Part shown: in pieces, positions 20,354 to 61,439 of the stretch
Numbering within the stretch: position 1 is the stretch's first letter
Layout of the letters: every line of letters begins with the position of its first letter
IMG/VR virus record: IMGVR_UViG_3300042261_000588
Coordinates: 64,001 to 128,000 of that record
DNA: 64,000 bases
DNA from: a virus
Strand: one strand, 5' to 3'
The notes under the pieces: model-generated
What the model was told of the DNA's origin: nothing
Databases searched by the model: none
What the model saw: the letters and a program-made list of their open reading frames with translations, nothing else
Translations under genes and position numbers: made by a program

Positions 20354-20440
20354 TACTTTGCTGTATTCGGCAGTAGTTTCCTGCAAATAACTGTGATAAT
20401 TTTTCGATATTTTACTAAGTGTTAGTGGGGAGTATAATTT

Positions 20441-20827
20441 ATGAGATCAGAGAGAATAGCAAATAGCTTAGTTAAGCGGATTACTGGTAATTACTCTGTT
20501 TTTGGGTGGAATCATGTAGTTGATGGGATGGTAGATCGATTGGAAGACCTATCTTCTGAAATAAGTATTTCCAAGTTTGATAATCTGGATGCTGTAGCTG
20601 GATGGTCCAAGCTGGTCGAGAGGGAACAGATCGACTTATACGACGAGGTATTATCTCGTGAGGTTGACGAACTTAGGGGTGAGTTGGCAAATATCTTAAA
20701 TGAGGCAGAGTCAATCAATCGTTGGTGGAGCGACGAATTGAGAAAAATGAAGCAGAAATGTCAGAAGGTATCGAAAGACATGCTTAGTTTAGCCGCTAAG
20801 TTCAAGAAAATGGAGAAAAGATCATGA
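20441..20827 (+). CDS. hypothetical protein with shared N-terminal tag
   Basis: MRSERIANSLVKRITG. Confidence 0.65.
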   Translation: MRSERIANSLVKRITGNYSVFGWNHVVDGMVDRLEDLSSEISISKFDNLDAVAGWSKLVEREQIDLYDEVLSREVDELRGELANILNEAESINRWWSDELRKMKQKCQKVSKDMLSLAAKFKKMEKRS

Positions 20828-21318
20828 ATAGAGAAGAGCGGATTATTGGTCGTGTAGCTAGTAAGTCTCTAGAGAGTTGGCAGATGATGGACATCAGTAA
20901 GGTATTGCGTAGAGAGCAAAATTTAAGGGGGAAGATAGCTGATGCGATTAGAGACATCAAGACATGGATGGCAGACATACGACATGATAACACGATGAAG
21001 ATGGCGGCAGAGGAAGCGATGAGTGCGCTCGTAGGTGCATTGAAGGCGACGGACATACTAATTGGCATTAGTTTGGGTGAGATGCATGGGGAGATGACTT
21101 ATCTAGCCGGAGAGAAGACGGCTGCGAACAATTGGATGAATATAATTCACATGAGGAGGGATTTAGATGATATGGTGGCACAAGCTAAGATGTGGGTAAG
21201 AAGCGAAAAGGATGCAACATCTGATGGTGGTTTTTCAAATGTTAAACATTATGAGTCTGTAGTGAGTGCTCTCGCCGAGTGCTCTGACAAACTTCGTAAA
21301 GTCGAACATATCACCTAA
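20824..21318 (+). CDS. hypothetical protein with shared tag and internal duplication
   Basis: MNREERIIGRVAS; two similar helical halves joined by GEKTAA. Confidence 0.65.
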   Translation: MNREERIIGRVASKSLESWQMMDISKVLRREQNLRGKIADAIRDIKTWMADIRHDNTMKMAAEEAMSALVGALKATDILIGISLGEMHGEMTYLAGEKTAANNWMNIIHMRRDLDDMVAQAKMWVRSEKDATSDGGFSNVKHYESVVSALAECSDKLRKVEHIT

Positions 21319-21338
21319 TAAAAACTGGAGAAATTTCT

Positions 21339-21725
21339 ATGAAAGATGTTGATAAGATTATTGAGCGTGTAGCCAAGGGGGTTACTGGGGCTGGCAAGTG
21401 GGGTTGGGAAATATTTGAAGTCAATAAGACAGGGGCCTTGCTTCAAATCAGACATGATACATTGGCGAGATTCATCAAATTGGGAGAGTTGACTAGAATC
21501 ACGAATGAGATGGCTGGAAAGGTTAGGTCTGATTTGGCTCAGTTGGTAGCTTATGGGTTATCGATCAACATGGCGAAAATAGAGATTGGTGAGAAAGAAG
21601 TTGCTATCGAGGATGGCAAGATCACTATTTTTGTTAATGTGACTGTGAAGTGGTTGCCGGGAGAACAAAATATAGTCTGGGAAGATATTTATGAGGGGAT
21701 GCGAGATAATGGGCTATTGCGTTAA
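21339..21725 (+). CDS. hypothetical protein with shared tag
   Basis: MKDVDKIIERVAKGVTG. Confidence 0.65.
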   Translation: MKDVDKIIERVAKGVTGAGKWGWEIFEVNKTGALLQIRHDTLARFIKLGELTRITNEMAGKVRSDLAQLVAYGLSINMAKIEIGEKEVAIEDGKITIFVNVTVKWLPGEQNIVWEDIYEGMRDNGLLR

Positions 21726-21800
21726 GAAATATTGGGAGTCGGTAATTATCAAGCCATTGGTCGACGAGTGGGTGTACGGTGATAATTAGGAGTTAAGAAT

Positions 21801-22427
21801 ATGAATAGAGAAGTGAAGATAGCTAATCGGGTGATGATGGCGGCGACGTTTTCTCAGTTTGAGCAAGCTCTTAAGCAGCATGACTGGACGTATAATTACA
21901 GTGATGATGGTAGGGTATGGCGTCGTGGCGAGGCACAAGCCAAGGATATTGAGTCTATGGCTAAGGAGTTGGTATTGGTTGATGCTGATCGGACGGTTGA
22001 TTTATACAACAAGTATGGTCGAGAAGGATGGAGCGGGGACTGGACTGATGTTACGGCTGATAAGTGGATGAATATTCATAGGCATGAGGCTGAGTTGGCG
22101 GCGTATCGCAAGACATTGGAAAAGGAGATACGGGAAGGTGGGCGTTTATTTGGTACGCCTATAGCGGGGAAGTGGTCAGATAATGGATGGATTGGGTATC
22201 CGCCGAATTTCACGTTATTAGTTCGAGGAAAGGATCATTCTGAGTTCACCATTGTATTATCTGGTACGGGTCGTGGGAGTCATTTAGCGATTCGGAAGGG
22301 GACATTGGTAGCACAGGAGAAGGTGGAAGGGTATTACAGCATCGTGGGTGGGGTAAAGCCAGAGGAAGTTGCTCGAACGATTCAGAAGATGTATAAGGAT
22401 TTGGTAGAGAGAGGGGTTATTGAGTGA
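21801..22427 (+). CDS. hypothetical protein with shared tag
   Basis: MNREVKIANRVMMAA, then an HDWTYNYSDD.RVWRRG domain. Confidence 0.7.
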   Translation: MNREVKIANRVMMAATFSQFEQALKQHDWTYNYSDDGRVWRRGEAQAKDIESMAKELVLVDADRTVDLYNKYGREGWSGDWTDVTADKWMNIHRHEAELAAYRKTLEKEIREGGRLFGTPIAGKWSDNGWIGYPPNFTLLVRGKDHSEFTIVLSGTGRGSHLAIRKGTLVAQEKVEGYYSIVGGVKPEEVARTIQKMYKDLVERGVIE

Positions 22428-23128
22428 TACCTCGTGGGATACAGGCATGGAGCAAGAACAAGAAGGTGGAGCGGACAGCACCTGGTTCCAAGAATCATTA
22501 CAAGGTCACTTACTGGGATGGGCAGGAGAAGTGGACGGATCAATACCCCGGAGCCGGGAAGCCGGGTAAAAGAGAACAAAAACTGGAAAATAAGAAGCAG
22601 GGAAGACCATCGGTTCAGGATGCAAAGGGGACATTGGCAGCAGCAGTGAAGAAGTATGTTAGTGGAGGGGAGAAGGGAATATTAGAGAATGCTGTAGATA
22701 ATGTGATTGTTCACTTAGGTCGTGAGATGGCTAAAGAGACAATCAGAAAATATCTGAAAGAGAACAAGACAGATGAAGATGGGAAGGTGAAAGAGGCGCA
22801 GGGTGTGATACGGGATCGGATGACGGACAAACTAAGGGGCAAGAAGGTTATGAATGGCAGGATAGACAAGATAGCGAGTCGAGTGGCGGGTTCTACTTAT
22901 CCGACTATGCAGCAGGTAGAACATGCCGAGTTGTATCAGTTGGTGCATTGGAATCGGTATTTGCCTAGTCCGGGAGAATGGGCGATAGGCGGTAGGAATA
23001 GGGCAGAATTTGAGAGGGCGTTAAATCACGAGGCACCGATCATCACTCGGATCGTCGAAAGAATTAAGGAATTGGGTGGTATCACGCCATCAGTGAGTAA
23101 GGCGGTTGGTTGGGATAGGTATCGGTAG
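22424..23128 (+). CDS. two-part hypothetical protein with internal tag
   Basis: internal MNGRIDKIASRVAG; C-terminal GGITPSVSKAVGW. Confidence 0.6.
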   Translation: MIPRGIQAWSKNKKVERTAPGSKNHYKVTYWDGQEKWTDQYPGAGKPGKREQKLENKKQGRPSVQDAKGTLAAAVKKYVSGGEKGILENAVDNVIVHLGREMAKETIRKYLKENKTDEDGKVKEAQGVIRDRMTDKLRGKKVMNGRIDKIASRVAGSTYPTMQQVEHAELYQLVHWNRYLPSPGEWAIGGRNRAEFERALNHEAPIITRIVERIKELGGITPSVSKAVGWDRYR

Positions 23129-23423
23129 GGGGCTAGGACCGTCAAGGCGTGGCTTTATAGGTAGGGGCTATGGCCATGGTAGTGGGGCAGGGCATCAAAA
23201 CTCGATTTTAAGGGCTCTGGGTGTGTTGTGGCTTGAATAAAGAAAGAGTAGAGTTTAGAAATGATTATTTTAAGATATTGGCTTTGTTTTTGTGAGTGGT
23301 TATTACGATTAGGGAGGACGCTAGAAGTTATAGCAGATGAGGAGAAGACAATCTAGAGGTTTAAAATGAATTGGGTATCAAGCAATTCATATGGGTATTT
23401 TATTAGGAATTGGGGATAGAGTA

Positions 23424-25235
23424 ATGGGATTGGAGAGGACAAACAGGATTCGAAGGATGGTCTCAAGTCTCATGGTGACAGCCTCAGAGATTTTAGGTAG
23501 CTCTGCGTGGATGAAGGGGTGGATTGATCCACACGGGAATTTTCATGCGATTCCTGGTGGATTAACGCATGAACATCTTGCTCGTAAAATATGGGATGGG
23601 AAGACTGAGACAGAGGATATGGCATCTCCGCTTTGGGGATCAAAACAGATGTATAAAAATGGGTGGGCTAGGGTAGTCCCATATGGGAGAGACACGCTTT
23701 CAGCGGAGGTTTCTAGAGGAGTTCGATCACTAACATACTCTCAGCTTGAAAAGTTAAAGGACTTGGCGATAGAAGAAGGGATGACTAGCATAAGATTGGA
23801 TAATGGAAACTCATTGACGGCAATCTGGGAGGACGAAGATTTGTTGGTTGCTCGATCCAAAGTTGGTTTTGAGTTCCCTTCACAGGATGCCATGAGCAAA
23901 TACCTTAAGGATCATCCCAAGGCGAAGAAAGAAAATCATTGGGTTCAAGATCAAAAACCGAAGAAAAATCTTCAGGAAAATGCTCCTAAAACTGAAGAAA
24001 AAGCTGATGATTCTGGCAAGGCTGGGAAATTCAGAGTGCCGGAACACAAGTTGTTGAAGTTCGAAATGGACGGGGATTTGGGGAACATGGACAATTGGAG
24101 GGCAAGGATAGTTCTCGGCAACTCGATGGGCGAAGACAAGAAGGTCGGGGATATGGATAAGATCGGTTATGTGGCGTTCAGCACGGTGAATGATGAGATT
24201 GTGCCGATAGCGAGAGCCGACGAGCATCAGGCAGGATATGAGTTGTTATATCATCTGGATAAGAATGGTGCGATCAGGAGCAGACCACAGGATTTTATCA
24301 CATTGTTTAATGGAAGCAATTATCCGCATTGCACGACGAAAGATACGAAGGCGTATGCAAGTGCGGTGAAGAAGTGGTTGGCTTGTGGTGGTCCAAATGT
24401 GTGCGTTCACTCCCAGAAAAATGGAAAGAATTATGTGACTGACATGGAAGAATATGCGGCATTAGGGGGAGATGTGCCGTATGAACAAAAGGGACCGTCA
24501 AAGGCTGGGCGTGAGATTTTAGATCACTTGGAAGGTGCGATTGGTAGTTTAAGAGAAGGTAAGGATAAAGAAGCCCTTGAACATGCTAAAAAGTTAGCAA
24601 ATAGGTTAGAAGTTTTTAGAAGTTATGTAGGTTATCCAGACGTATTTATTGATGAGTTGGATAAGATGGAGAAGGACAGGGATATATCGGGTCTTGGCAG
24701 GGCAATTAAGGCAGTAGCGAAAGATATTTGGGATCATCTCAAAGAGGAACGTGATCGTAAATATTCGTATGTGTCGGGGCTTTACGGAACAGGAGATGAT
24801 GCAGATAAGAGGTTGGAGAAAGCGGCTGGTGCAGACACAGAGCCTCCTAAGAAGGAAGGCGAGACCGAGAGACCTCGTTTATCTGATGTTGGGCATAATA
24901 TCGTTAGTCATTTAGAGAAGGCGGCGAAGGCAGGAATTCAGGAATTTGGCCGTGGAATTGATCGAATGAAAGATTCGGCAATGGATTTAATTTTTTATTT
25001 ACAGCCTATGATGGAGGATGTAGATGATTTAGGACCTGCCTTAGAGAGATTGCATCGTGCGATGGCAGGGGAGGATAGTGACGAGATACAACAAGCGTTG
25101 TTCTCGTATAACGGGGTTAAGAATTTATTGCATCAGCGGTTGAGGAAGTTGATGGCGGATGGTGTGGTGAAGGACAAGCATTTTGGAGATGTGAAGTCGG
25201 CTTTTGAGGAGTTTGAGAGGTTGGGACAGATTTGA
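23424..25235 (+). CDS. multidomain hypothetical protein with shared tag
   Basis: RTNRIRRMVSSLMVTAS; GWIDPHG..H domain; EFPSQDAMSKYLKDHP module; repeated ILDHLE/IVSHLE helices. Confidence 0.7.
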   Translation: MGLERTNRIRRMVSSLMVTASEILGSSAWMKGWIDPHGNFHAIPGGLTHEHLARKIWDGKTETEDMASPLWGSKQMYKNGWARVVPYGRDTLSAEVSRGVRSLTYSQLEKLKDLAIEEGMTSIRLDNGNSLTAIWEDEDLLVARSKVGFEFPSQDAMSKYLKDHPKAKKENHWVQDQKPKKNLQENAPKTEEKADDSGKAGKFRVPEHKLLKFEMDGDLGNMDNWRARIVLGNSMGEDKKVGDMDKIGYVAFSTVNDEIVPIARADEHQAGYELLYHLDKNGAIRSRPQDFITLFNGSNYPHCTTKDTKAYASAVKKWLACGGPNVCVHSQKNGKNYVTDMEEYAALGGDVPYEQKGPSKAGREILDHLEGAIGSLREGKDKEALEHAKKLANRLEVFRSYVGYPDVFIDELDKMEKDRDISGLGRAIKAVAKDIWDHLKEERDRKYSYVSGLYGTGDDADKRLEKAAGADTEPPKKEGETERPRLSDVGHNIVSHLEKAAKAGIQEFGRGIDRMKDSAMDLIFYLQPMMEDVDDLGPALERLHRAMAGEDSDEIQQALFSYNGVKNLLHQRLRKLMADGVVKDKHFGDVKSAFEEFERLGQI

Positions 25236-25339
25236 TTTCATCTGGGATATTTGCGAGCTAACAAATAACCTTGCCAAAAATGCAATCTGGTATGTTATGC
25301 GGACGGTATCCTGGATGGATTTTCAAGAGGAGGATGAGG

Positions 25340-25846
25340 ATGAGTATTGCAAGCGACATTGTTTCAGTAGCCAAGGACTTAATAGCTGGTGAAGGTTTGT
25401 TCGACATAATGTCAGAAATGATGAAGGGCATGAAGATAATGATCTACACGCCAGATGTAGGTGATGTTCAACTTATTGGAGGTAGTTATGCTCCTTCTCC
25501 AACTACTTTCATACCACGGAGAAAGAGTTGTGTGGCTATGCTTGTTTCGAGTATCACAGTAATGCCAGAGAGGCCGTATATCAATGCGGAGGTTGTGCCG
25601 GGTCGGCGATACATGATGGTTATTACTATAACGACCGCTGGTGGTCACATGTCAGATAAGATTGAGGCCCCGCTGATTTTGAGGGCTAACGCCGAGGATG
25701 ATCTTAATCGGTTTTTACAAACATATGTTCCTCATTTGGTTTCTAGATATTTGCGGGAACATGGAGCGAAGATGATGGAAGTGAGTGAAGGGATTCACAA
25801 GAGCATTTCAGAGATGTATGACGGTGGTCGTGACATGGGTGACTGA
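25340..25846 (+). CDS. hypothetical protein with shared tag
   Basis: MSIASDIVSVAKDLIAG; SD GAGGAGG. Confidence 0.65.
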   Translation: MSIASDIVSVAKDLIAGEGLFDIMSEMMKGMKIMIYTPDVGDVQLIGGSYAPSPTTFIPRRKSCVAMLVSSITVMPERPYINAEVVPGRRYMMVITITTAGGHMSDKIEAPLILRANAEDDLNRFLQTYVPHLVSRYLREHGAKMMEVSEGIHKSISEMYDGGRDMGD

Positions 25847-25995
25847 TAAAGGAGACGACCATGAAGACGAGAAGAGGATCAGATACAGAGGTTTTTAGGA
25901 GGATGTTGTAGACTTAGAATATCTGAATGATGGATTGGATCACTTACTTCTTTATCATTAAAGAATCACTATAAGACTCTTAGTGAAAGGTTTTT

Positions 25996-26217
25996 ATGAT
26001 TATTGATCCATGGCTTAGTGTAGATCAAGTTGGGTTGGTATGCCAGTCTTGTGCCGAGTCTATGAAGAACAAGGGGATTAAGGCGATCAGGGCGTCTGTG
26101 TTGAGGAATGCTCAGATAACGTGGCAGGAGTGTGTGGACAAAGCGATTAAGAAGAATATGGCGAAGGATGCTGGCGCGTTGTGTGGATGGTTGAAGAGTA
26201 GGGATCAGAGTGTCTAA
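25996..26217 (+). CDS. small Cys-containing protein
   Basis: CQSCAE..IRAS..CVDKA..ALCGWLK. Confidence 0.55.
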   Translation: MIIDPWLSVDQVGLVCQSCAESMKNKGIKAIRASVLRNAQITWQECVDKAIKKNMAKDAGALCGWLKSRDQSV

Positions 26218-26229
26218 ACAGGGGGAATC

Positions 26230-26305
26230 ATGAATAGGGAAATCTAGGATTGCCGAGCGGATTGTTGCGAGGTATCCTGATACAGCCAACAGAGCAGGAG
26301 CGTAA
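26230..26305 (+). pseudogene. frameshifted remnant of a tagged gene
   Basis: SD GGGGGA; removing one A gives MNRESRIAERIVARYPDTANRAGA*. Confidence 0.45.
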
Positions 26306-26551
26306 CTCTGGCGTGAGCAGGCAGAGGAGCCTCGACGGAAAGAGGGAATTCGTCCTCGCAAGGAAGATTAGGTCATCTATAGATGCCAGCGACGTGAATT
26401 TAGAGAGGATAAGCTATGAAAAAAAGTAAAAACGGGAAGGGTAAGATTTTTATCGACTTGCTTTTAATTCTTCTCGTTGCTTGTTTTTTTATGGGTTTGA
26501 TTCTGTTTTCTTTTCAGGGTTTGTCTAACATTCTTAATTCGGGAGTAGCGA

Positions 26552-27643
26552 ATGAGATCAGTTCTAAATAATCGAGTTTCGAGAATTGCCGATATTGTGG
26601 CCGAACACCGCTCTTCGCAGTCAAGAATCTCCGCTATTGTAGATAGAATTATTGCTCTTGAGTTTGATAATCGCAAGCAGATGGAAGACTATCGGCGCGA
26701 ACATGATGTTAGGCCGGGAACAAAACTGGTTGTAAAAACTCCGGCGAAGCATCAAACCGGTCCTTTGGAAAGTCCGTCTTCACCTCGACCACGTCATCTG
26801 ACGAGCAAGGCGGTTTATACTAAGAAGGATGGGTGGAGAGCAGTAGATGGGAAAGAGTTGCCAGAGCATGTAAGGAAGCAAGCTATTCCTCCGGCGTGGA
26901 AAGACGTTCATTACGATCCTAATCCAAAAGCAGACTTAGTTGTTCAAGGCAGGGATTCTAAAGGTCGGATTCAGAGTCGGTATTCTGATTCTCACAAGGC
27001 AATGGTTGCAGCAGAGAAGTTTGCCAGAATATCAGAGTTGATCAAGAAGATAGGCGAGATCAAAGGTGAGAATGAGAAGAATGGTAAAGGGGGCAAGAAA
27101 GATGATGCGGAATGTTTGAGACTGATTATGGAGACAGGGATTCGTCCGGGAAGCGATCGGGATACGAAGGCTGAGAAGCAGGCTTATGGTGCGACGACAT
27201 TACGGGGGCGTCATGTGGTCGTCAAAAAAGATGGTGTTCATCTAGATTTTATTGGAAAGAAGGGGGTTCATCTTGACATCCCGGTAATGGATAAAAAGAC
27301 GGCTGAAAATTTGTTGGGTCGTGCAAAAGAGGCTGGTAAATCAGGGCGTCTTTTCAACACGAATGAGGGCAAGTTATTGGAGTATACACACACACTTGAT
27401 GGTGGTGGTTTCAAGGTTAAGGATATGAGAACGATGGTTGGAACAACGACGGCAATCAGTTTGGTAAAGAAAATGCCCGTGCCGCAATCTGAATCTGAAT
27501 ACAGAAAGCAAGTAAAAGAAGTTGCTGTTTCTGTTTCAAAAAAACTAGGCAATACACCAGTCGTTTGTCTTCAAGCTTATATCAGCCCGGTCGTTTTTAC
27601 AACATGGAGACAAATTGGGTGGGAATTAAAGGGGGCGGCATGA
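26552..27643 (+). CDS. DNA topoisomerase IB (bacterial/poxvirus type) with N-terminal tag
   Basis: IPPAWKDV, GRDSKGRIQSRY, TGIRPG, YGATTL, FIGKKG, KDMRT, LGNTPVVCLQAYISP. Confidence 0.92.
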   Translation: MRSVLNNRVSRIADIVAEHRSSQSRISAIVDRIIALEFDNRKQMEDYRREHDVRPGTKLVVKTPAKHQTGPLESPSSPRPRHLTSKAVYTKKDGWRAVDGKELPEHVRKQAIPPAWKDVHYDPNPKADLVVQGRDSKGRIQSRYSDSHKAMVAAEKFARISELIKKIGEIKGENEKNGKGGKKDDAECLRLIMETGIRPGSDRDTKAEKQAYGATTLRGRHVVVKKDGVHLDFIGKKGVHLDIPVMDKKTAENLLGRAKEAGKSGRLFNTNEGKLLEYTHTLDGGGFKVKDMRTMVGTTTAISLVKKMPVPQSESEYRKQVKEVAVSVSKKLGNTPVVCLQAYISPVVFTTWRQIGWELKGAA

Positions 27644-27804
27644 AAAAGGTTTTTGACTTGGATGCTGATGTTGAGTTTGGCACGGATGTTTTGCCGGACT
27701 GGAGAAAGGCAGATGATGTCGCCGATACAGACGATGAAGAAATGAAAGAAACCCCGATAGACGTGTTGATGATTCTAGGGTTCGATCCAAAAGAATTATT
27801 TTGA
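27640..27804 (+). CDS. small acidic protein
   Basis: DDEEMKETPIDVLMILGFDP; ATGA overlap with topoisomerase. Confidence 0.6.
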   Translation: MKKVFDLDADVEFGTDVLPDWRKADDVADTDDEEMKETPIDVLMILGFDPKELF

Positions 27805-29579
27805 TGAATACTAAGGTCATAGAGTTGACAAAGCCATTTGATAGTGCAGCACTTGAATGTGACGGCATGACTAGGGTATTGAGAACAGTTCTTTCAGATA
27901 ATCATATTTCACATACTCCAAAGGTTGGACGGGTGGAGTGGAATGGAAAATACTTCAGTCCACATTTTTGGATCGAGCTGCCTAATGGTGATGTAGTGGA
28001 CTATAGACTTCGGATGTGGTTTGGTGGACAGGCACCGCATGGAGTTTTCAATCCAGAGAAATCAGGGGTGATCTACGAAGGACGGACGGCGAACATGCCG
28101 GTGTTGACAGATTTTCTGTTTGGTGTGCTGGCAGGTAAACCGAGAGTTGCTGGCGTCAAAGAGGTGGTAGATAAAATAACCAAGAGAATCAGGGACAGCG
28201 AATTGGTTCAACGATTGACGGATAAAGTGCTTCGATTCATTAAAACCAAGCATCCTTCTGATGATCTAACACCAGAGGAAGTGGCTGCGATTTATAGACA
28301 GGAAGATTATGGTGATGATTTTGACATGCCGGGAGGTCAAGAGTTGGATGTGGGTTGGACGAATCATGCAGAGTATCGATGTGATTTAAGGGATGTTGAT
28401 CCATCAAGAGTGAATGAGACCATTAGAGATTTTGCCGAGACACATCCTCATCAACATAAGATGGTAAATTTGACGAATCGGAGTTTAGGGAAGGCGGTAG
28501 TGGACGTGAATACAATGACAACCCCGGAAGAGGCTCGTGTTGTTACAGTAATGGCAAACGACGATATTGAATCCAGTCTTCTCATCTCAACTCTTTCTGA
28601 GTTGGGTGTAGTTGGGTTGTCAAAGGTTGCTGGACCCAATGATATTAGATGGCAGGCCGTCTTTATGATGGGTTCATCGGGTTCTGGGAAGTCACACTAT
28701 CGAGAGAAGACTTACTTGAAATACATGAAGTTCAAGGTGGTTGATCCAGATGCGTTGGTTATGGCACATCCTGATTACGATCCAGAGAGACCCTATCTCC
28801 TACATGAGTGGTCGAAAGATGTGAGTGATGTGGAGTTCAACTCAATCATAAGTAATGGGACTGGCGATCCTGTTGTCGTAGACGGAACGGGTAGAAATCC
28901 CGAAGGAATCTTGAGGAAGATGGCTGCGGCGAAGAAGAATGGCTATAGGATTTTTCTCGTTTATATTTGGGTTCCAGTAGAGGTATCGATATGGAGAAAT
29001 AGGAATCGTTCCAGATTTGTGCCGGAAGAGAAGATCGTGAATGTGTATAAGGGATATGATGAATCTTTTGCAAGGCTTCGGGGTTATGCGGATAGTTTTA
29101 AGGTGATTCCGAATTACACAAGCGAAGATTTGAGAGCTGCTAAAAAAGACATTGAGGTTTATCCTGCACCGCAAAAAGTGAGACCGCCAAGGCCAGGAGA
29201 CAGTGATTATGGGAAAGACGAGATGAGTAAGGCAGCTTCAGATGTCATCTTGTTTCCGGGACAAGGAAACGGTAACGATGACGGGGATCAGACTCATAAC
29301 TACAGGCTCGGGAGTGTGAAGACGTTCTACCAGATTGATAGTGAGGGTGGTAAGAAACACGAACATCACTGGCGCAAGACTTGTGTGGAGTGCGGAGGCG
29401 TCGATACTTGTCGCTGTTCCGCTCCGAAGGTGGATGTTTCAGGGATTTGCTATGATTGTTGTGAAAAAGAAGGTATCGACTTTAAAACAGGGAAGAAGAT
29501 TGTGATCTCTGCCGTAAAGGACAGGCAGGCGAGAATTGTTGATCGTCTTATTCAGAAGGTGCTTGAAAGGAAATTATGA
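27801..29579 (+). CDS. polyvalent protein with zeta-toxin-like P-loop kinase
   Basis: N-terminal PHFWIEL..VVDY; WTNHAEYR; MGSSGSGKS..DPD..VVDGTG..RNRSRFVP; C-terminal Cys cluster. Confidence 0.7.
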   Translation: MMNTKVIELTKPFDSAALECDGMTRVLRTVLSDNHISHTPKVGRVEWNGKYFSPHFWIELPNGDVVDYRLRMWFGGQAPHGVFNPEKSGVIYEGRTANMPVLTDFLFGVLAGKPRVAGVKEVVDKITKRIRDSELVQRLTDKVLRFIKTKHPSDDLTPEEVAAIYRQEDYGDDFDMPGGQELDVGWTNHAEYRCDLRDVDPSRVNETIRDFAETHPHQHKMVNLTNRSLGKAVVDVNTMTTPEEARVVTVMANDDIESSLLISTLSELGVVGLSKVAGPNDIRWQAVFMMGSSGSGKSHYREKTYLKYMKFKVVDPDALVMAHPDYDPERPYLLHEWSKDVSDVEFNSIISNGTGDPVVVDGTGRNPEGILRKMAAAKKNGYRIFLVYIWVPVEVSIWRNRNRSRFVPEEKIVNVYKGYDESFARLRGYADSFKVIPNYTSEDLRAAKKDIEVYPAPQKVRPPRPGDSDYGKDEMSKAASDVILFPGQGNGNDDGDQTHNYRLGSVKTFYQIDSEGGKKHEHHWRKTCVECGGVDTCRCSAPKVDVSGICYDCCEKEGIDFKTGKKIVISAVKDRQARIVDRLIQKVLERKL

Positions 29580-32257
29580 CCAAGATTTTGTGGCACATCT
29601 CGAATAGTCTGTTCAAGAGGTTTGACCCGAGGATGACGGCTCAGGGGATCATTTGGTTTGCAGAAGACGGGAATCATCTAGTCAAGGACTTGCATGGGGC
29701 ATCTGTCAACAATAGATTGCCAGTATACTTATACAAGTGCGAAGTAAGGATGGGTAAAGTTGCGGGCTGGGATGAGTATGATAAGAAGGGGCTCGGACAA
29801 TTAAGAGATGATGGATTTGACACAATCGAGCTTGATGGCGACGTGGCAGTTTTAAACAAGAACTTCATTAGAATTCTGGGAGTGCAGCAGATTGGAAAGA
29901 AGGAGCATGTAATGACAGCATCAGAAAACAAGTGTAAGGTAATTAGGCCACCGGAAGTGTTTGACTTCAAGCAGCCTCCTGAGCCGCCAGTAGTCTTTTT
30001 GGGTGGTGCTATTGATATGGGGCAGGCAGAAGATTGGCAGTCAAAACTTGCCGAGACTCTCGATGATGTTTCATGTGTGTTGCTCAATCCCAGACGCAAT
30101 GATTGGGATTCTTCATGGGAGCAGAGCATTCATAATCCCCAGTTCAAGGAGCAAGTTGAGTGGGAATTGAAGGGTTTGGAGCAGGCGACTTTTGTTGTGA
30201 TTGTCTTGCCGAAGGATTCCAAGGCTCCGATTTCGCTTTTGGAACTTGGGTTGCATGTGATTGGCAGGCGGATGATTGTCTTCTGTCAGGAAGGGTACTG
30301 GCGCAAGGGGAATGTGGATGTGGTTTGCAATCGGTATGGGGTGCCTGTTTACGAGGATTTCGACTCTTTTGCGACTTTTGTGAAGGCGAGGATTTTGGAA
30401 ACGACGGCGGGAGCGCATGAGCCGGAAGTATTGCCCGAAGGGACGGTACAGCAGCAGAAACAGCATTTCGTCGTGGCGTCGGATCGGATGGCATGGCGAA
30501 TCATGGCAAGAGAGTTCGTAATTGGAACGAAGGAGGTGCGTGTGGCTTCAAATATGAGTGCGTCTAAAAATAAAAAGGTGGTTTGTCCTGACTGCGGTCA
30601 GATGGTTGGTGTTAGGTTGGTTCCAGGAGGAGGATCGTGGAATCATTTCATTACACATATGGATCGCAAGGGAGATCACTGCAAGGGATCGGGATGGTCA
30701 GTTCCTAAATATCCAGATAAGGAAGAGTGGGGAAAGCAGGAGCGTGTATCAAGTAGATCGAGATATTGTTCCGTGCCGAGATATTGTGATTTTTACAAGG
30801 CGGTGAATGGCAAGTGGTATATGAACTTGGCGAATGATGAGGATGGGGGGTATCGCGACTCAGAAACATACGGTCCATTTGAATCACTTGATAGTGCTAA
30901 GAAGTACTTGCATAATTTCTCGAATCCGGGCTCCTATCGGACGGATGATAGTGGAAAGAAGTCTGTTCCAACTCATAGTCCAAATGGACGGCCTGTGCAA
31001 AAACCGGAAAGTCGTACGTGGAGCAGCAAAATGATGGCAACAATGACAGTTAAAGAAGGCGATATTTGCAATGTTAGTGGTCATACGGAGGCAGAAGCTG
31101 ATCCGATGGCCGGAGAGAATCTGACGAGTCTTTTCTTGACATTACAGTCTTGGGCTACTAGGAAGGCCAATAGCCTGCATTTCGGGGCACCAGTGGCCTT
31201 GCAGATACTGGACAGGCTGGATGATGTGGAGACAGCATTGAAGGGCAAGATGGGTCTCCGTGGGCGGGAAGCGGTCATTGCGCTATTGAAAGCTATGAAA
31301 GGCTGCTTTACTATGGATGCTCAGCCGATTCCGGCTCTGATTCACAGATACGGCGTGGATGCGATTCGGGAGTGTGCAGGTCGTCGTTCTGCATCGGTTG
31401 AGTCCGGCATGGGAGATACTCACCCATTTGGTTCTCCTTTGCGTGGCAGACCGGATTACGGCGAAAGAGATGGGGAAGTTGGAGAAAAATACGGATTGAA
31501 ATTACCAAGTGAGGGTATAATGACATCGGAGGATAAGAATATGAGTGTTACAGCAGAGACTTTACGAGTCCGTGTAATTGCAGACAGGATCGCCTCTATG
31601 GCGAAAGAGTTTTTAGGATCGGAGAGATGGGATGGCGAGATACAGGGACAACATATACGGTTTCAATGGGTAGATCGTAGTGAGCGTCAATATCGGCTAA
31701 CAGAGATGCCCATGCCAGGAAAGAAGCGTCTGAGGGTAAGGTCTGGTGGATTCCCAGCATGGTTGGGAGGATCACAGAAGAGGGAATATGGATTCTTGCT
31801 GATGGCAAATGTTGCACCTCGCATCAAGGCGTCGATGACATACGAGCAAGCAGCGTCCGAGATTGATAAGAGAATGAAGGAGTTGGTGGCCGAGTCGAAT
31901 GACAAGTCTTCAGAACCAAAACAAGAGCAGGATTTGATTTCGGGGCCATGGGAGACGTTGGTGTTCTATCTTGAAGTTGAGCCTGCGGATATGAAGCCAT
32001 TTGTTGTTGATGCTAAGGATTTTAAGGTTTCTGTTGGTTGGGATAAGTTTGAGGCATACGATCCGTCTTCGATTTTTGAACAGTCTGATCCGTTCTACAC
32101 GAAGTATCAATCAAAGAGTCCTACGGCTGCACGTAAGATGTATAAGGTCTTAAACGCCGATCCAGACGCATTGAAGAACGTCTCTTGGAGCGACTTTGGT
32201 GGTTGGATGAGGAGGAGTGGAATTAGCTATGACAGTCATTCGAGTCAGTGGCATTAA
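29576..32257 (+). CDS. polyvalent protein: ART-like, nucleoside 2-deoxyribosyltransferase-like, Zn ribbon and unknown domains
   Basis: LWHIS..FKRFD..GIIWF; VFLGGAIDMG..DWQ..LNPRR..WE..PISLLELG; CPDCG..H....C. Confidence 0.7.
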   Translation: MTKILWHISNSLFKRFDPRMTAQGIIWFAEDGNHLVKDLHGASVNNRLPVYLYKCEVRMGKVAGWDEYDKKGLGQLRDDGFDTIELDGDVAVLNKNFIRILGVQQIGKKEHVMTASENKCKVIRPPEVFDFKQPPEPPVVFLGGAIDMGQAEDWQSKLAETLDDVSCVLLNPRRNDWDSSWEQSIHNPQFKEQVEWELKGLEQATFVVIVLPKDSKAPISLLELGLHVIGRRMIVFCQEGYWRKGNVDVVCNRYGVPVYEDFDSFATFVKARILETTAGAHEPEVLPEGTVQQQKQHFVVASDRMAWRIMAREFVIGTKEVRVASNMSASKNKKVVCPDCGQMVGVRLVPGGGSWNHFITHMDRKGDHCKGSGWSVPKYPDKEEWGKQERVSSRSRYCSVPRYCDFYKAVNGKWYMNLANDEDGGYRDSETYGPFESLDSAKKYLHNFSNPGSYRTDDSGKKSVPTHSPNGRPVQKPESRTWSSKMMATMTVKEGDICNVSGHTEAEADPMAGENLTSLFLTLQSWATRKANSLHFGAPVALQILDRLDDVETALKGKMGLRGREAVIALLKAMKGCFTMDAQPIPALIHRYGVDAIRECAGRRSASVESGMGDTHPFGSPLRGRPDYGERDGEVGEKYGLKLPSEGIMTSEDKNMSVTAETLRVRVIADRIASMAKEFLGSERWDGEIQGQHIRFQWVDRSERQYRLTEMPMPGKKRLRVRSGGFPAWLGGSQKREYGFLLMANVAPRIKASMTYEQAASEIDKRMKELVAESNDKSSEPKQEQDLISGPWETLVFYLEVEPADMKPFVVDAKDFKVSVGWDKFEAYDPSSIFEQSDPFYTKYQSKSPTAARKMYKVLNADPDALKNVSWSDFGGWMRRSGISYDSHSSQWH

Positions 32258-32321
32258 ATCCATTTTTTCTTTATATTTGGCCCTTTCGTAGAGGGTTTGA
32301 CAAAAATGAGGTTGGAGGTTT

Positions 32322-33128
32322 ATGAATCGAACAGTATTGGCTAGTCGTCTGTTAGAGATTGCGAGTGATGTTTCTGTATTAGCGCAGTCACGGGATAGTG
32401 TTATTGCAGGCATGGCAAAGACGATCAATTCGTTTCAATTGGGTCCAGAGGTAGTCGCATCTGCAAAAGCTGTTGCGAAGTTGGCTCAGGACTTTAAGGA
32501 TCATCATGCTGATTTGATTGCACAGATAGCAGCTATGGAGAGAGCAGTAGACGCAAAGCGTGATGTTCTCAAGGCGTATTACAAGGATTGGAAGACAGAG
32601 ACTGGATATGAGAGGTCTCGCCGTGAGTTGCTTGCGCAGGCATCCACTTGTATGCAAGTTGGTGACGCCATGACAGAACTTGCTGATGACCTATCCATTG
32701 TCAAAAGGGAGTCGGAGCAAGAGTCGTATAAAGAGAAATACAATATTTTGGTTTCGACTTTGAATGAGGCGGAATTGAATAAATATCGTAGAATCTTAGA
32801 TTCTTTCTTTTCCAAACAGATCACCGAGTTGAAGACTGGTGTTAAGGAACTGGATGGTGCGGTGAAGGAGTGGCATGATAGTGCTCAGGCGATTGCCGAT
32901 GAGAGAGGCGTTAGATTGCCGAAGGCAAGTGATAATATTCGTCAGGCAGGCGTTGTGGATGAATTCATGGATGTTCTTAAGGGAATTATCCCCAAGTTGA
33001 AGGTGAGCCTCCAGAGGTGGGGGCAGAATCTTTGGAGGAACATCACGCAAAACAGCAGTCAATTAAGCGACATCAGTCAGAAGCTGCTTGATATGACAAG
33101 TAAGGCGCATGAAGTGTTGGCTTCGTAG
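32322..33128 (+). CDS. helical protein with shared tag
   Basis: MNRTVLASRLLEIASDV; SD GGAGGT. Confidence 0.65.
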   Translation: MNRTVLASRLLEIASDVSVLAQSRDSVIAGMAKTINSFQLGPEVVASAKAVAKLAQDFKDHHADLIAQIAAMERAVDAKRDVLKAYYKDWKTETGYERSRRELLAQASTCMQVGDAMTELADDLSIVKRESEQESYKEKYNILVSTLNEAELNKYRRILDSFFSKQITELKTGVKELDGAVKEWHDSAQAIADERGVRLPKASDNIRQAGVVDEFMDVLKGIIPKLKVSLQRWGQNLWRNITQNSSQLSDISQKLLDMTSKAHEVLAS

Positions 33129-33150
33129 TCTTGTGTGGGAAGGGCATGTT

Positions 33151-33768
33151 TTGAAACGGCGAATTGCGTTTTCATATGGCTGTGTGATGGTGAGACTCCC
33201 AGAACCTCTCTCTGAAGAAGTTAGAAGTTATGGAGCTTCCATACCTTCGGCTTATCTGGTAAAGGGCAACGAGGATGCTCCGTCGGGTTTATCAAATGAT
33301 GTTCATATTACCGTCAAATATGGACTCTTGGAAGATGACCTAGAGAAGGTTGCAGGAGTCATAGCAGGGACAGAGCCGATTGTGGTGAGACTTGGTCGTG
33401 CGAGCATCTTTCATAATGAGAGTCAGGCAGTTCTTAAATTGGGTGTCGAGAGTCCGGGTCTGAAGGCGTTACATCATAAGTTGGCTGGTTCTCTTCGTAA
33501 TGTCAACACATACCGGGATTATCGTCCACATGTTACAGTAGCATACATGGTGAAAAAGGAAGATGACCCTTATTACTATCGCACGTTTTTTAATGACAGT
33601 TTTGAGGGTAGGGAGTTCACGGTTGGACAGATATTACTTTCTAGGTCGAATGGACAGAAGTTTGAAATTTCATTTGGAGGGGATGTCAAATCAATAGAAT
33701 CCGAAAGAATAGATCGGATAGCCAGCGTCGTGTCTGATTCGGCATTAAGAATCTCACAGAGAAGGTAA
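33151..33768 (+). CDS. 2H phosphoesterase (Acb1/T4 gp57B-like)
   Basis: YGCVMV, HITVKYGL, YRPHVTVAY. Confidence 0.85.
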   Translation: MKRRIAFSYGCVMVRLPEPLSEEVRSYGASIPSAYLVKGNEDAPSGLSNDVHITVKYGLLEDDLEKVAGVIAGTEPIVVRLGRASIFHNESQAVLKLGVESPGLKALHHKLAGSLRNVNTYRDYRPHVTVAYMVKKEDDPYYYRTFFNDSFEGREFTVGQILLSRSNGQKFEISFGGDVKSIESERIDRIASVVSDSALRISQRR

Positions 33769-33801
33769 ACGTAAAACGTATAATATGAAAAGGAGACAAG
33801 G

Positions 33802-34227
33802 ATGAATGTTGAAGAGGTTAAGGGTGCAATTATCAAGTATGGCAGCCAACGAGCGGCGGCTAGGAAGTTAGGTCTCACAAGAGGCCAACTGAGGCATATC
33901 TTAGGGATAGGAAGAGGAACTTTTAAGGTAATTAATTCGGTTCCTAGAAATACGATGAGTCGATCAACAAGCGCCAAATCGCTCAAGGATTTCAGGATGT
34001 TGTATGATAAAAACGTGATCGTTCCAAGGAAGATTAAGGAGGCTTTAAAGCGACTAGGTGTTAATGGTTGGACATACGAGGCCGAGCTTATTCACGATGC
34101 TGGCATATCGCAGACGGATATGGGAAATTTCAGACATCTGTTTTCAGACTTCTATGTGGAGATGAAGTTGAAGAGGGTGTGGGCGGGTTCTGCGAAATTT
34201 GCACAAACACTGAGAGGCATGATATGA
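33802..34227 (+). CDS. HTH-containing protein
   Basis: GSQRAAARKLGLTRGQLR. Confidence 0.65.
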   Translation: MNVEEVKGAIIKYGSQRAAARKLGLTRGQLRHILGIGRGTFKVINSVPRNTMSRSTSAKSLKDFRMLYDKNVIVPRKIKEALKRLGVNGWTYEAELIHDAGISQTDMGNFRHLFSDFYVEMKLKRVWAGSAKFAQTLRGMI

Positions 34228-35081
34228 AAAAGAGAACACTGGGAGATTTTGAAGTGGCTCATGGACAGCCGAAGATCGCTCGTATGGAACGCCAGCTTGA
34301 AGTGGAGCGGGCAAAGGTTTCTGCATTGTCTGATGTTCAAGGGAAAGTTCGCAAGGTTGTTTCAAAGGGCAATACATTCGTTTTCGGTTTGTTCGGAGAC
34401 ACTCAGACTGGAAGTATATATTCAGCTCCAGAGTGTTGGAAGGCGTGGGCAGAACATGCCAAGGCTCGTGGCGCAACAGCTCTCTATCATACCGGCGATG
34501 TTTTGGATGGGCATCGTATTTATAAGGGGCAGGAATTTGAACTGCGTGATGTGGGCATGGAGAGACAGTTGGAGCGTCTTGTAAAGGATGCGCCAGATGT
34601 GGGTATCCCGGTGGAGTTTATCGTAGGAAATCACGATTTGTCCCTCAAACATCTCGCCGGTGTAAACATTGGGAAGGCTATCGAAGAGAGGATGTTGAAA
34701 GCCGGGCAGAAGTGGAAATTCCTCGGAGAGGAAACAGGCTATGTGGAAGTGATGACTCCCATAGGTAAGATATTCAGGCTGAGATTGTTACATCCTGGCG
34801 GTGGTAGCAGTTACGCAATTTCCTATAGACTTCAGAAGATCATTGAGTCGTTAGAAGGCGGAACAAAACCCGATATGCTGGCAGTCGGTCACTATCACAA
34901 GGCTGAGATGTTGCCGAATTATCGGAACGTATGTGGAATTCAGACTGGGGCATTCCAGTGGCAATCTCCATTCATGGCAAGAATGGGCTTGGCGGCTCAT
35001 GTCGGTGGATGGATCGTTGAGGTAACAACGGGTGCGGACTTAATCTCCATTCGTGGAGAGTTTGTCGCATTCTTTAGATAA
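34224..35081 (+). CDS. calcineurin-like metallophosphoesterase
   Basis: GDTQTGS, HTGDVLDG, GNHD, HPGGG, GHYH. Confidence 0.85.
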   Translation: MKKRTLGDFEVAHGQPKIARMERQLEVERAKVSALSDVQGKVRKVVSKGNTFVFGLFGDTQTGSIYSAPECWKAWAEHAKARGATALYHTGDVLDGHRIYKGQEFELRDVGMERQLERLVKDAPDVGIPVEFIVGNHDLSLKHLAGVNIGKAIEERMLKAGQKWKFLGEETGYVEVMTPIGKIFRLRLLHPGGGSSYAISYRLQKIIESLEGGTKPDMLAVGHYHKAEMLPNYRNVCGIQTGAFQWQSPFMARMGLAAHVGGWIVEVTTGADLISIRGEFVAFFR

Positions 35082-35101
35082 AGGAAGAAAGGAAGAAAAG
35101 A

Positions 35102-35485
35102 ATGAAAAAGAGAGAAGTTGCATCAGAGTTGGTTAAGATCGCTAAGAGTTTGTTGGCTCTTCCGATGACGTTTAATTCACCATCGACGGAAACAACTCGG
35201 TGGGCTAAGAAGACGTTGATGCTTGCACTGAATGTGGATGCAAGTTGGAAACAGATATACGAATCGTTTATGACAGTCCAAGAAGGTGGTAGTAATAAGT
35301 TCCACTACTTTGGAGTCTTCAAGTCTCGCACGGGGGGGTGTGTTGGCGGTAACGCCTATGGGCGAATCGGATATAATCCTAGAGCCATCGAGGTAGCTCG
35401 TGGTAGCGAGAGCTCGGTTATGTCGAGTGTTCGTGAGAAGGCCAGCGACAAACAGAGAAAGGGTTATCGAGTAACCGAAGTGTAA
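35102..35485 (+). CDS. WGR-domain-like protein with shared tag
   Basis: MKKREVASELVKIAKSLLA; SNKFHY..YGRIG..K.RKGY. Confidence 0.7.
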   Translation: MKKREVASELVKIAKSLLALPMTFNSPSTETTRWAKKTLMLALNVDASWKQIYESFMTVQEGGSNKFHYFGVFKSRTGGCVGGNAYGRIGYNPRAIEVARGSESSVMSSVREKASDKQRKGYRVTEV

Positions 35486-35710
35486 TAGACTTCATGTCGG
35501 CGGAAGAAGGGTAAAGCCTATGGCTGATGCAAAACATGGCTTATGACGCCAAGAAAAAGGAAGTCAGCCGCCGCATGAGGTTACTGGAAGATTAGCTTGA
35601 AAAGCATGATCGTCGGCAGAAGAATCGTCCGAATGAAACAGAGTTTGTCAAAGACTTGGATGATGTTGTGAAAAGTCTGGACGAACTTATGAGAGAGTTG
35701 GGGGTGATTT

Positions 35711-36028
35711 ATGCCTTATAATCCTGATAATCCTCCAGATGTGATACGTCGTAAGTTGCCGAAGGAAAAACAGAGGAAGTGGTGTGAGGTTTTCAACTCG
35801 GTATTTGATAAGACTAAAAGCGAGGAAAAAGCATTTCAAACAGCTTGGAGTGTAGTTAAGAAATCCTCTTGTAACTGCGACGTAGATAAGGGTTGTGGCG
35901 GCAACTGTGGCTGTTTTGGACAGCTTATTGGGCCGTCTGAGAGTGAAGGTTCTATAGCAGATGCTACTAGGACTCAAGACATCCTTAATGCAAAAGAGTT
36001 GTTGGTTCTAGCTAGAAGTCTGATTTAG
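35711..36028 (+). CDS. ChaB-like protein with C-terminal tag
   Basis: MPY..PPDV..LP..QRKWCEVFNS..AFQTAWSVVKK; ends AKELLVLARSLI. Confidence 0.7.
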   Translation: MPYNPDNPPDVIRRKLPKEKQRKWCEVFNSVFDKTKSEEKAFQTAWSVVKKSSCNCDVDKGCGGNCGCFGQLIGPSESEGSIADATRTQDILNAKELLVLARSLI

Positions 36029-36234: not shown

Positions 36235-36235
36235 T

Positions 36236-61363: not shown

Positions 61364-61439
61364 AGGCGTGTGGTCCAATTGGTCGGGCACCGGTCTCCAA
61401 AACCGGACTATGTGGGTTCGAGTCCCGCCACACCTGCCA
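61364..61439 (+). tRNA. tRNA-Trp(CCA)
   Basis: cloverleaf, CTCCAAA loop, CCA. Confidence 0.88.

What the first reader, a model, noticed from the sequence alone, without database searches (positions are those of the whole stretch)
20441..36028. A shared amphipathic tag on about 15 unrelated proteins: candidate virion cargo-loading system
Seen: otherwise unrelated ORFs carry a similar 12-18 aa helix at the N-terminus, internally or at the C-terminus: ERIANSLV, EERIIGRVA, DKIIERVA, EVKIANRV, IDKIASRVA, TNRIRRMV, ASDIVSVAKDLIA, VSRIADIV and ISAIVDRIIA (topoisomerase IB), QARIVDRLI, DRMAWRIMA, RVIADRIA, ASRLLEIA, IDRIASVV (2H protein), ASELVKIAKSLLA (WGR), AKELLVLARSLI (ChaB). A frameshifted remnant at 26230 keeps only the tag. 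Established: T4 internal proteins use a short capsid-targeting sequence, and jumbo-phage ejection proteins have cleaved propeptides. Inference: the tag is a portable packaging signal that loads a variable toolkit of enzymes into the head for injection with the DNA.
Basis: partly seen in the sequence, partly recalled or inferred. Interest (0 to 1): 0.85.

Follow-up and report, generated by a model that had tools for sequence, protein, structure and literature searches.

The report
Shared head-targeting tag on phage proteins
A large group of uncultured giant lake phages puts the same short helix on many otherwise unrelated proteins, and the same helix ends the proteins that build the inside of the phage head, so it most likely acts as an address label that loads enzymes into the head.

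Summary
Between 20441 and 36028, about a dozen proteins with no other similarity carry one of two related 11-13-residue amphipathic helices. Type 1 is (D/E)-(R/K)-I-(A/I)-x-R-V-A. Type 2 is A-(S/K)-E-L-V-x-(V/I)-A-K-x-L-L. Most sit just after the start codon, three are C-terminal and a few are internal. Three or four of the 16 listed members are not supported.

Selection acts on the peptide, not on the DNA. Profiles built only from this genome find 120 more copies in 24 related phage loci. Of these, 96 lie within 12 residues of a Met, against 11 in reversed controls.

In relatives whose contigs include the head genes, tagged genes crowd between portal and major capsid protein. The head maturation protease ends in a type-1-like helix. 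The two proteins in the scaffold position end in type-1 and type-2 helices. Cargo tags therefore look like copies of head-interior docking helices.

This makes capsid loading the best reading, at about 0.55, but nothing shows packaging or injection. This contig lacks its own head genes and no tagged phage is cultured.

The scan has noted analogous shared helix tags in other giant phages, each with an unknown reader. This case suggests a candidate reader.

The parts
20441..20827 (+). 128-aa coiled-coil-like protein with a weak type-1 tag at 20444-20476
   Evidence: The tag scores 7.4-11.1 bits. It is conserved in L001/L002.
20824..21318 (+). 164-aa protein of unknown function with a strong type-1 tag at 20830-20862
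   Evidence: Six orthologues keep the I-x-x-R-V-A-S-K-S part. P0007 is a fusion with the next gene.
21339..21725 (+). 128-aa protein of unknown function with a type-1 tag at 21345-21377
   Evidence: The orthologue in L001/L002 keeps the tag.
21801..22427 (+). 208-aa protein with a type-1 tag at 21807-21839 and an internal type-2 tag at 21939-21974
   Evidence: In L001/L002 this slot holds a non-homologous gene with an N-terminal type-2 tag of 22.6 bits.
22424..23128 (+). 234-aa two-module protein with an internal type-1 tag at 22859-22891, just after an in-frame Met
   Evidence: The architecture is kept in L001. It is the top hit in this genome to the scaffold-position helix-2 profile, at 12.6 bits.
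23391..25235 (+). 614-aa protein of unknown function; the listed tag at 23436-23468 is weak
   Evidence: 7.9 bits. It scores 3.4 bits when left out of its own profile.
25271..25846 (+). Protein whose likely start is 25340 (ribosome site just upstream), with a strong type-2 tag at 25349-25384
   Evidence: It scores 27.3 bits with the profile built from other genomes.
26230..26305 (+). Broken remnant: a tag-type start codon context, a stop, then a type-1 helix in the next frame followed by a short tail
26552..27643 (+). Topoisomerase IB with an 88-residue N-terminal extension carrying two type-1 helices (26573-26605 and 26624-26662) and a Pro/Ser-rich linker
   Evidence: Pfam domains start at residue 89. 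Tags. The G006 homologue lies between terminase and portal and has a tag.
27801..29579 (+). 592-aa multi-domain protein with a Zeta-toxin/AAA_33 kinase domain; a moderate C-terminal helix lies at 29523-29564
   Evidence: Pfam. The tag scores 6.2 bits when left out of its own profile.
29576..32257 (+). 893-aa multi-module protein with a nucleoside 2-deoxyribosyltransferase-like domain; internal tags at 31565-31615 and 31853-31888
   Evidence: Pfam. Tags. Residues 664-893 start at the tag and match a free-standing N-tagged protein of G006 at 37% identity.
32322..33128 (+). 268-aa helical protein with a moderate type-2 tag at 32340-32375
   Evidence: 10.8-11.7 bits.
33109..33768 (+). 2H phosphoesterase (2'-5' RNA ligase superfamily; Acb1 family just below cut-off) with a C-terminal type-1 tag at 33706-33738
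   Evidence: Pfam. The tag scores 14.3 bits with the four-core profile. It aligns to both C-terminal helices of the G006 scaffold-position protein, E 0.003 and 0.009.
33802..35081 (+). Untagged members of the block: a small HTH protein and a metallophosphoesterase
   Evidence: Pfam. Homologues sit inside a tag cluster of G006 at 61215-62467.
35102..35485 (+). WGR-domain protein with a strong N-terminal type-2 tag at 35120-35155
   Evidence: Pfam. It scores 33.7 bits with the clade profile and 18.0 bits with the profile of the acidic head-module protein.
35711..36028 (+). ChaB-domain protein with a C-terminal type-2 tag at 35990-36025
   Evidence: Pfam. It scores 12.9 bits with the acidic head-module protein profile.

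Best explanation
The tags are portable docking helices that carry proteins into the assembling phage head.

In this phage clade, the proteins that must be inside the procapsid end in short amphipathic helices. These are the maturation protease, an acidic protein encoded just after it, and a second scaffold-position protein ending in a helix-turn-helix. Accessory proteins carry copies of the same helices at their N-terminus (the usual case), at their C-terminus, or between fused modules.

Inferred steps:
- The helices bind a common site in the procapsid, either the inner face of the capsid shell or the scaffold core. Tagged proteins are therefore co-assembled inside.
- Some or all of them stay in the head and enter the host with the DNA. 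The enzymes concerned are topoisomerase IB, a 2H phosphoesterase, kinases, a deoxyribosyltransferase-like protein and, in relatives, an RNA ligase and a SAM-lyase-like protein. They could then act before any phage gene is expressed.

Shown: the shared peptide, its selection at the protein level, its portability, its spread over the clade, and its presence on head-module proteins.

Inferred: binding, packaging, cleavage and injection.
For: Statistics and lack of relation between bodies.

Peptide-level selection.

Portability:
- A non-homologous replacement gene carries a tag.
- Fusion and split forms exist.
- One orthologous family carries type 1 in one phage and type 2 in another.

Clade-wide occurrence:
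- 120 hits in 24 loci, 96 of them N-terminal, against 11 reversed and 4 on the opposite strand.
- About 30 tags in the 253-kb relative G006, including C-terminal ones.

Head link:
- The order in G006 is terminase, tagged TopIB-like gene, portal, tagged genes, protease, scaffold-position proteins, capsid protein, then four tagged genes.
- The protease ends in a type-1-like helix in G006, G009, G004 and G007.
- The tag-free cultured relative Tunturi_5 has a homologous protease (37% identity) that stops just before that helix.
- The acidic post-protease protein ends in a type-2 tag, at 14-23 bits in three genomes. The next protein ends in two type-1-like helices, at up to 17.5 bits.
- Profiles made only from these head proteins rank the window's tags first in this genome.
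- The complete 304-kb relative G007 has only two tags, and both flank the protease.

Precedents: the T4 capsid-targeting sequence and the SPN3US protease tail (PMC7411985), the first 30 residues of P1 DarB (PMC9024508), and the P22 scaffold C-terminal helix-turn-helix used to load cargo (PMC9962691).
Against: - No tagged phage is cultured, so there is no virion proteome.
- This contig (67% complete) lacks its head module, so the link rests on relatives.
- The block itself lies among nucleotide-metabolism and methylase genes, not head genes.
- The scaffold role of the two head-module proteins rests on position and composition only. PHROGs and the PDB gave no hit.
- The type-1 resemblance to the scaffold-position helix is short. 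It is significant by rank but not by hit counts. BLASTP of the TopIB leader against it finds nothing.
- No conserved cleavage motif follows the tags.
- Many tagged genes in relatives flank neck and tail genes. That fits late expression but not specifically the head interior.
Confidence: 0.55

Rival explanations
1. The helix docks the tagged proteins onto a common partner outside the virion. This could be a phage or host hub in the infected cell, such as a replication or repair factory, a chaperone or a clamp-like platform. It would gather nucleic-acid enzymes in one place.
For: Many cargo bodies are DNA or RNA repair-type enzymes: TopIB, 2H, a kinase and, in G005, an RNA ligase. The window's block lies among metabolism genes. 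Analogous tags in other giant phages of this scan have no known reader.
Against: This does not explain why the prohead protease and the scaffold-position proteins carry the helices. It also does not explain why tagged genes crowd between portal and capsid genes, or why the only tags of G007 flank the protease.
Confidence: 0.2
2. The tagged proteins do enter the procapsid but act as assembly-core or scaffold accessories. They are degraded or expelled at maturation and are not delivered to the host. The enzyme bodies would then be incidental or act during assembly.
For: Most tagged proteins in relatives are small (70-300 aa) and of unknown function. They lie in head and neck modules. One protein of this genome carries three tags and a charged, Gly-rich middle.
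Against: Enzymes with complete catalytic domains have no obvious role in assembly. The cargo set changes fast between close relatives. That is typical of host-interaction genes, not of assembly parts.
Confidence: 0.15
3. The helix is a recognition signal for proteolysis, a degron read by the prohead protease or a host protease. It would time the removal of these proteins.
For: It is a terminal, short, conserved peptide. A protease gene lies next to tagged genes.
Against: The protease itself and the scaffold-position proteins carry the helix. Internal copies between fused modules and tandem copies fit docking better than a degron. No cleavage motif is conserved.
Confidence: 0.06
4. The similarity is chance, or generic amphipathic helices, or a DNA-level element such as a recombination or translation signal that happens to be translated.
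For: The motif is short and built from common residues. My own de novo motif search did not rank it above shuffled controls. A-rich second codons are common at starts.
Against: Cross-validated and cross-genome profiles give large excesses over shuffled, reversed and opposite-strand controls. The codons differ synonymously. C-terminal and internal copies exist.
Confidence: 0.03

Closest known systems
Capsid-targeting sequence (CTS) of phage T4 internal proteins IPI-III and Alt
   Same: Both are short N-terminal peptides on otherwise unrelated proteins that direct them into the prohead core. In both cases the cargo is variable and acts on the host after injection (PMC7411985, PMC9024508).
   Different: - There is no sequence relation.
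- Here there are two helix flavours, also found at C-termini and between modules.
- There are up to about 30 carriers per genome.
- The helices are shared with scaffold-position proteins and the protease.
- No T4-type cleavage motif is seen.
- Function is untested here.
P22 scaffolding protein C-terminal helix-turn-helix (coat-binding domain) and its engineered cargo fusions
   Same: A C-terminal helix-turn-helix lies on a protein encoded next to the capsid gene. In P22, fusing that part to foreign proteins loads them into capsids (PMC9962691). That is the arrangement these phages appear to use naturally.
   Different: The P22 fusions are man-made. There is no sequence similarity. Coat binding of the helices here is only inferred.
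C-terminal targeting tails of prohead proteases (HK97 gp4, from my own knowledge; SPN3US gp245, PMC7411985)
   Same: The protease reaches the prohead interior through a terminal extension. Here the protease ends in a type-1-like helix that a tag-free relative lacks.
   Different: In those phages the tail is specific to the protease and is not shared with a library of accessory proteins.
N-terminal packaging signal of phage P1 DarB
   Same: An N-terminal stretch of fewer than 30 residues is sufficient to send an anti-restriction protein, or a reporter, into the head (PMC9024508).
   Different: It is a single protein in a stepwise Dar assembly, not a shared motif on many proteins.
Encapsulation peptides of bacterial microcompartments, and cargo-loading peptides of encapsulins
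   Same: Both are amphipathic helices of 15-20 residues at either terminus, joined by a poorly conserved linker. They mark diverse enzymes for enclosure in a protein shell (PMC4594438). Encapsulin shells share the HK97 fold (my own knowledge).
   Different: No microcompartment shell gene is in the contig. The shell here would be a phage capsid and the cargo would leave with the DNA.

Membership tests
T4-type capsid-targeting sequence | Short terminal peptide shared by otherwise unrelated phage proteins | tested here: met
T4-type capsid-targeting sequence | Peptide removed by the prohead protease at a defined motif (L/I-x-E in T4) | tested here: inconclusive
   No conserved residue pattern follows the tags apart from a small residue (Ala, Gly or Ser) ending the helix. 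The protease is of another family. Cleavage cannot be read from sequence.
T4-type capsid-targeting sequence | Sequence relation to the T4 peptide | not tested
   No T4 sequence was fetched, so no comparison was run. The consensus read is an Ala/Lys/Glu/Leu helix of different make-up (my own recollection of the T4 peptide). Any relation would be functional only.
T4-type capsid-targeting sequence | Tag is sufficient and necessary for incorporation into proheads; carriers are found in virions | not testable with these tools
   No cultured tag-bearing phage was found. Tunturi_5 and phage G carry no tags.
Scaffolding-protein coat-binding helix-turn-helix (P22 gp8 type) | Gene lies between the prohead protease and the major capsid protein gene | tested here: met
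   Seen in six genomes, with landmarks from PHROGs and tblastn.
Scaffolding-protein coat-binding helix-turn-helix (P22 gp8 type) | C-terminal pair of short helices joined by a turn | tested here: inconclusive
   A conserved pattern of two type-1-like segments separated by a Gly-containing turn is seen in six sequences.
Scaffolding-protein coat-binding helix-turn-helix (P22 gp8 type) | Binds the inner surface of the capsid protein | not testable with these tools
   No complex prediction tool was available.
Microcompartment encapsulation peptide | Amphipathic helix of 15-20 residues at either terminus, joined by a variable linker | tested here: met
   Hydrophobic positions recur at i, i+1, i+4, i+5, i+7, i+8. 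Pfam domains start well after the tags. An AlphaFold model of a tagged family gives a helix at residues 3-20 followed by a break, at low confidence.
Microcompartment encapsulation peptide | Shell proteins of the BMC family encoded alongside | tested here: not met
   PF00936 finds nothing in the contig.

The most novel reading that the evidence does not exclude
A natural cargo-loading code based on scaffold mimicry. Phages of this clade would fill their heads with a fast-changing set of up to about 30 enzymes and small proteins by giving each a copy of the docking helix that their own scaffold proteins and protease use. New payloads could then be recruited by a 12-residue fusion and delivered with the DNA as a pre-made counter-defence and repair kit.
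Probability: 0.4. Interest if true: 0.85.

Novelty: new variant of a known kind. Interest (0 to 1): 0.72.

Why it matters
What giant phages carry into the cell besides DNA is largely unknown, because most of them are uncultured. A sequence label that marks head cargo would let the injected protein set be read directly from genomes and metagenomes across a large clade.

It would point to proteins that act in the first seconds of infection. Candidates here are topoisomerase IB, an Acb1-like 2H phosphoesterase, kinases, an RNA ligase and a SAM-lyase-like protein.

It would also give a 12-residue natural tag for loading foreign proteins into an HK97-fold shell.

Finally, it offers a first candidate reader for the family of shared helix tags that this scan keeps finding in other giant phages.

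Tried and rejected
- **BLOSUM neighbour counts.** Counts over all 10-mers were dominated by Cys/Trp/Gly motifs and were useless.
- **My own EM motif finder.** It timed out, then locked onto a ParB-like paralogue family, then overfitted. The tag motif appeared among the top eight seeds but did not beat shuffled controls. I replaced it with cross-validated and cross-genome profiles.
- **Locus searches.** Single-protein searches with the 614-aa protein and TopIB, and an alignment search with the 20824 family, found nothing in IMG/VR. A nucleotide search of the block against cultured phages found nothing.
- **Replication-region relatives.** G001-G003 carry no tags, as expected for that module, so they were uninformative.
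- **Back-translated type-2 DNA pattern over IMG/VR.** It gave 15 chance-like internal matches.
- **Folding and structure searches.** The AlphaFold model of the adaptor-like protein failed at pLDDT 30, so no fold search was run. A PDB sequence search of the protease and the scaffold-position protein gave nothing useful.
- **Ideas rejected.** A DNA-level element; microcompartment targeting; the neighbouring caspase-like gene as tag protease, because it starts with a lipoprotein-type signal; a sigma-70-type promoter as a shared feature.


Full report
**Setting.** The window is bases 64001-128000 of a single 143,854-base linear IMG/VR phage record that CheckV rates 67% complete. Terminase, T4-type capsid and prohead protease models find nothing in it. 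The head module therefore lies in the missing third. The contig holds neck and tail genes at genome 5-36 kb, replication genes at 36-62 kb, and nucleotide-metabolism and methylase genes after the block.

Pfam on the block gives these domains:
- 26552: topoisomerase IB
- 27801: a Zeta-toxin/AAA_33 kinase domain
- 29576: a nucleoside 2-deoxyribosyltransferase-like domain
- 33109: a 2H phosphoesterase, with the Acb1 family just under cut-off
- 34068: a metallophosphoesterase
- 35102: WGR
- 35711: ChaB

**The observation.** The helices fall into two related flavours.
- Type 1 is (D/E)-(R/K)-I-(A/I)-x-R-V-A. It is strongest in four consecutive genes, 20824, 21339, 21801 and, internally, 22424.
- Type 2 is A-(S/K)-(E/D)-(L/I)-(V/L)-x-(V/I)-A-(K/R)-x-L-(L/I). 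It is seen at 25349, 35120 and 35990.

The main checks:
- A profile from the four core type-1 sites finds 10 further sites of at least 10 bits in the genome. Reversed proteins give 2 and shuffles 2.9 +/- 1.6. Six of the 10 are in the block.
- A profile from three type-2 sites finds 12 further sites, against 4 reversed and 2.9 shuffled.
- Outside the tags the carriers share nothing detectable.
- The codons of the tags differ synonymously and the upstream DNA is not conserved. The constraint is therefore on the peptide.
- Several listed members are weak.

More tags lie outside the block, at genome 4115, at 7954 (one type 1 and two type 2 in one protein) and at 14968. The body of the 14968 protein is a ferredoxin-like domain that begins after the tag.

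**Portability.**
- Metagenome contigs L001 and L002 are close relatives. Orthologues there keep their tags. The slot of gene 21801 holds an unrelated gene that begins with a type-2 tag of 22.6 bits, and this gene was not used for training.
- Database protein P0007 fuses homologues of 20824 and 21339, which leaves the second tag internal.
- Residues 664-893 of the 893-aa protein begin exactly at an internal tag. They match a free-standing, N-tagged protein of the relative G006.
- One orthologous family (genome 6990) carries a type-1-like tag in G005 and a type-2 tag in G004. In this genome its tag is cut off by a frame change in a run of T. The two flavours are therefore interchangeable.

**Spread.** The adaptor-like protein at genome 8726 belongs to a large family of at least 172 clusters, on contigs of up to 342 kb.
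- In 24 IMG/VR loci around it, the profiles trained only on this genome give 120 hits of at least 12 bits on the gene strand. Of these, 96 lie within 12 residues after a Met. Reversed proteins give 11 and the opposite strand gives 4.
- The clade consensus is (K/R)-(I/V)-A-(K/R)-E-L-(V/L)-x-(V/I/L)-A-(K/R)-(E/D)-L-x-(A/S), usually a few residues after Met-(Asn/Asp)-(Arg/Lys).
- A profile of 67 such sites from other genomes scores five proteins of this genome at 21-34 bits, where 0.03 are expected.
- G004 has about a dozen tagged small genes with good ribosome sites just upstream of its neck genes.
- G006 (253 kb) has about 30 tags in four clusters, including C-terminal ones.
- Tagged bodies in relatives include an RNA ligase and a borderline SAM-lyase-like domain.

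**The head link.** G006 contains the head module (PHROGs). The gene order is:
1. Terminase large subunit.
2. A TopIB-like gene with a tag, homologous to the window's topoisomerase.
3. Portal.
4. A 656-aa protein.
5. A small type-1-tagged protein.
6. Two type-2-tagged proteins.
7. The head maturation protease. It is 37% identical to the annotated protease of the cultured phage Tunturi_5.
8. An acidic protein with two type-2 helices.
9. A second acidic protein.
10. The major capsid protein. It matches phage G gp27, PDB 6wkk, at E 1.7e-60.
11. Four more tagged genes.

Seven head modules were compared:
- The protease ends in a type-1-like helix.
- The small acidic protein after it ends in a type-2 tag, at 14.3, 15.5 and 23.2 bits with the profile from this genome.
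- The next protein ends in two type-1-like helices joined by a Gly-containing turn, at up to 17.5 bits.

Profiles built only from these head proteins and run over this genome rank the window's tags first.
- The acidic-protein profile gives the WGR protein 18.0 bits, then the proteins at genome 4115, window 35711 and window 25271.
- The helix-2 profile ranks the internal tag of 22424 first and the topoisomerase leader second.

The tail of the 2H protein aligns with both helices, at E 0.003 and 0.009. The type-1 resemblance is short and is not significant by hit counts, and BLASTP of the topoisomerase leader finds nothing.

The complete 304-kb relative G007 has only two tags, and both lie next to the protease. 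Tunturi_5 and phage G have no tags. The Tunturi_5 protease ends just before the point where the helix starts in the tagged clade.

**Reading.** Proteins that must sit inside the procapsid carry the same helices as the accessory proteins, and tagged genes are embedded in head and neck modules. The simplest account is that the helices dock on a procapsid component and that accessory proteins use them to get inside.

This matches known principles:
- the T4 capsid-targeting sequence and the SPN3US protease tail (PMC7411985);
- the P1 DarB signal (PMC9024508);
- the P22 scaffold helix-turn-helix, which loads any protein fused to it (PMC9962691).

Microcompartment encapsulation peptides look alike (PMC4594438), but no shell gene is present.

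Binding, cleavage, retention in mature heads and injection are all inferred. I put capsid loading at about 0.55 and delivery into the host at about 0.4.

**Limits.**
- The head link rests on relatives, because this contig lacks its own head genes.
- The scaffold role of the two acidic proteins rests on position and composition.
- No proteome exists for any tagged phage.

**Earlier notes of this scan** describe analogous shared helix tags in other giant phages, each with an unknown reader. A full-text search for six type-2 core strings found no paper.

Noticed in passing
L004:6900-7274 (genome 6.9-7.3 kb, outside the window): The gene at genome 6990 has its tag-coding start in another frame than its body. 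The change lies in a run of T. Orthologues in G005 and G004 are in one frame. This could be a sequencing error, decay or slippage.
   Followed up: partly
G004 46966-49464 and G012 head locus L104:8396-10519: The prohead protease gene is about twice its normal length in these two relatives. The insert resembles residues 139-421 of the portal protein of G006, a segment that also matches PHROG 36001 seen in this genome's methylases. It may be a mobile insert or an intein.
   Followed up: no
L090:501-1361 (G006) and relatives: The major capsid protein of this uncultured clade is related to gp27 of Bacillus phage G (PDB 6wkk, E 1.7e-60) and to that of Tunturiibacter phage Tunturi_5 (48% identity). 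The gene just upstream matches the position of the phage G decoration protein.
   Followed up: partly
window 36206-37090: A caspase-family (Peptidase_C14) protein with a lipoprotein-type signal peptide lies directly after the block.
   Followed up: no
window 19220-20188, minus strand: This is the only long minus-strand gene near the block. It encodes a Cys/His-rich 322-aa protein and is about 90% conserved in L001 and L002 at the same place, just before the first tagged gene.
   Followed up: no
L028:14662-15558 (G005): A tagged 298-aa protein has a borderline S-adenosylmethionine lyase family match (26.8 bits against a cut-off of 28). That would be an anti-restriction type enzyme.
   Followed up: no
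L004:7954-8724: One 256-aa protein carries a type-1 tag at its start and two type-2 tags in tandem, followed by a Gly-rich stretch and a C-terminal domain. It could be a cross-linker or adaptor between the two tag systems. The same slot in G005 and G004 holds other tagged genes.
   Followed up: partly
window 20411-20438: A sigma-70-like promoter match (10 of 12) ends 3 bases before the start codon of the first block gene. It overlaps the ribosome site and is probably coincidental.
   Followed up: no
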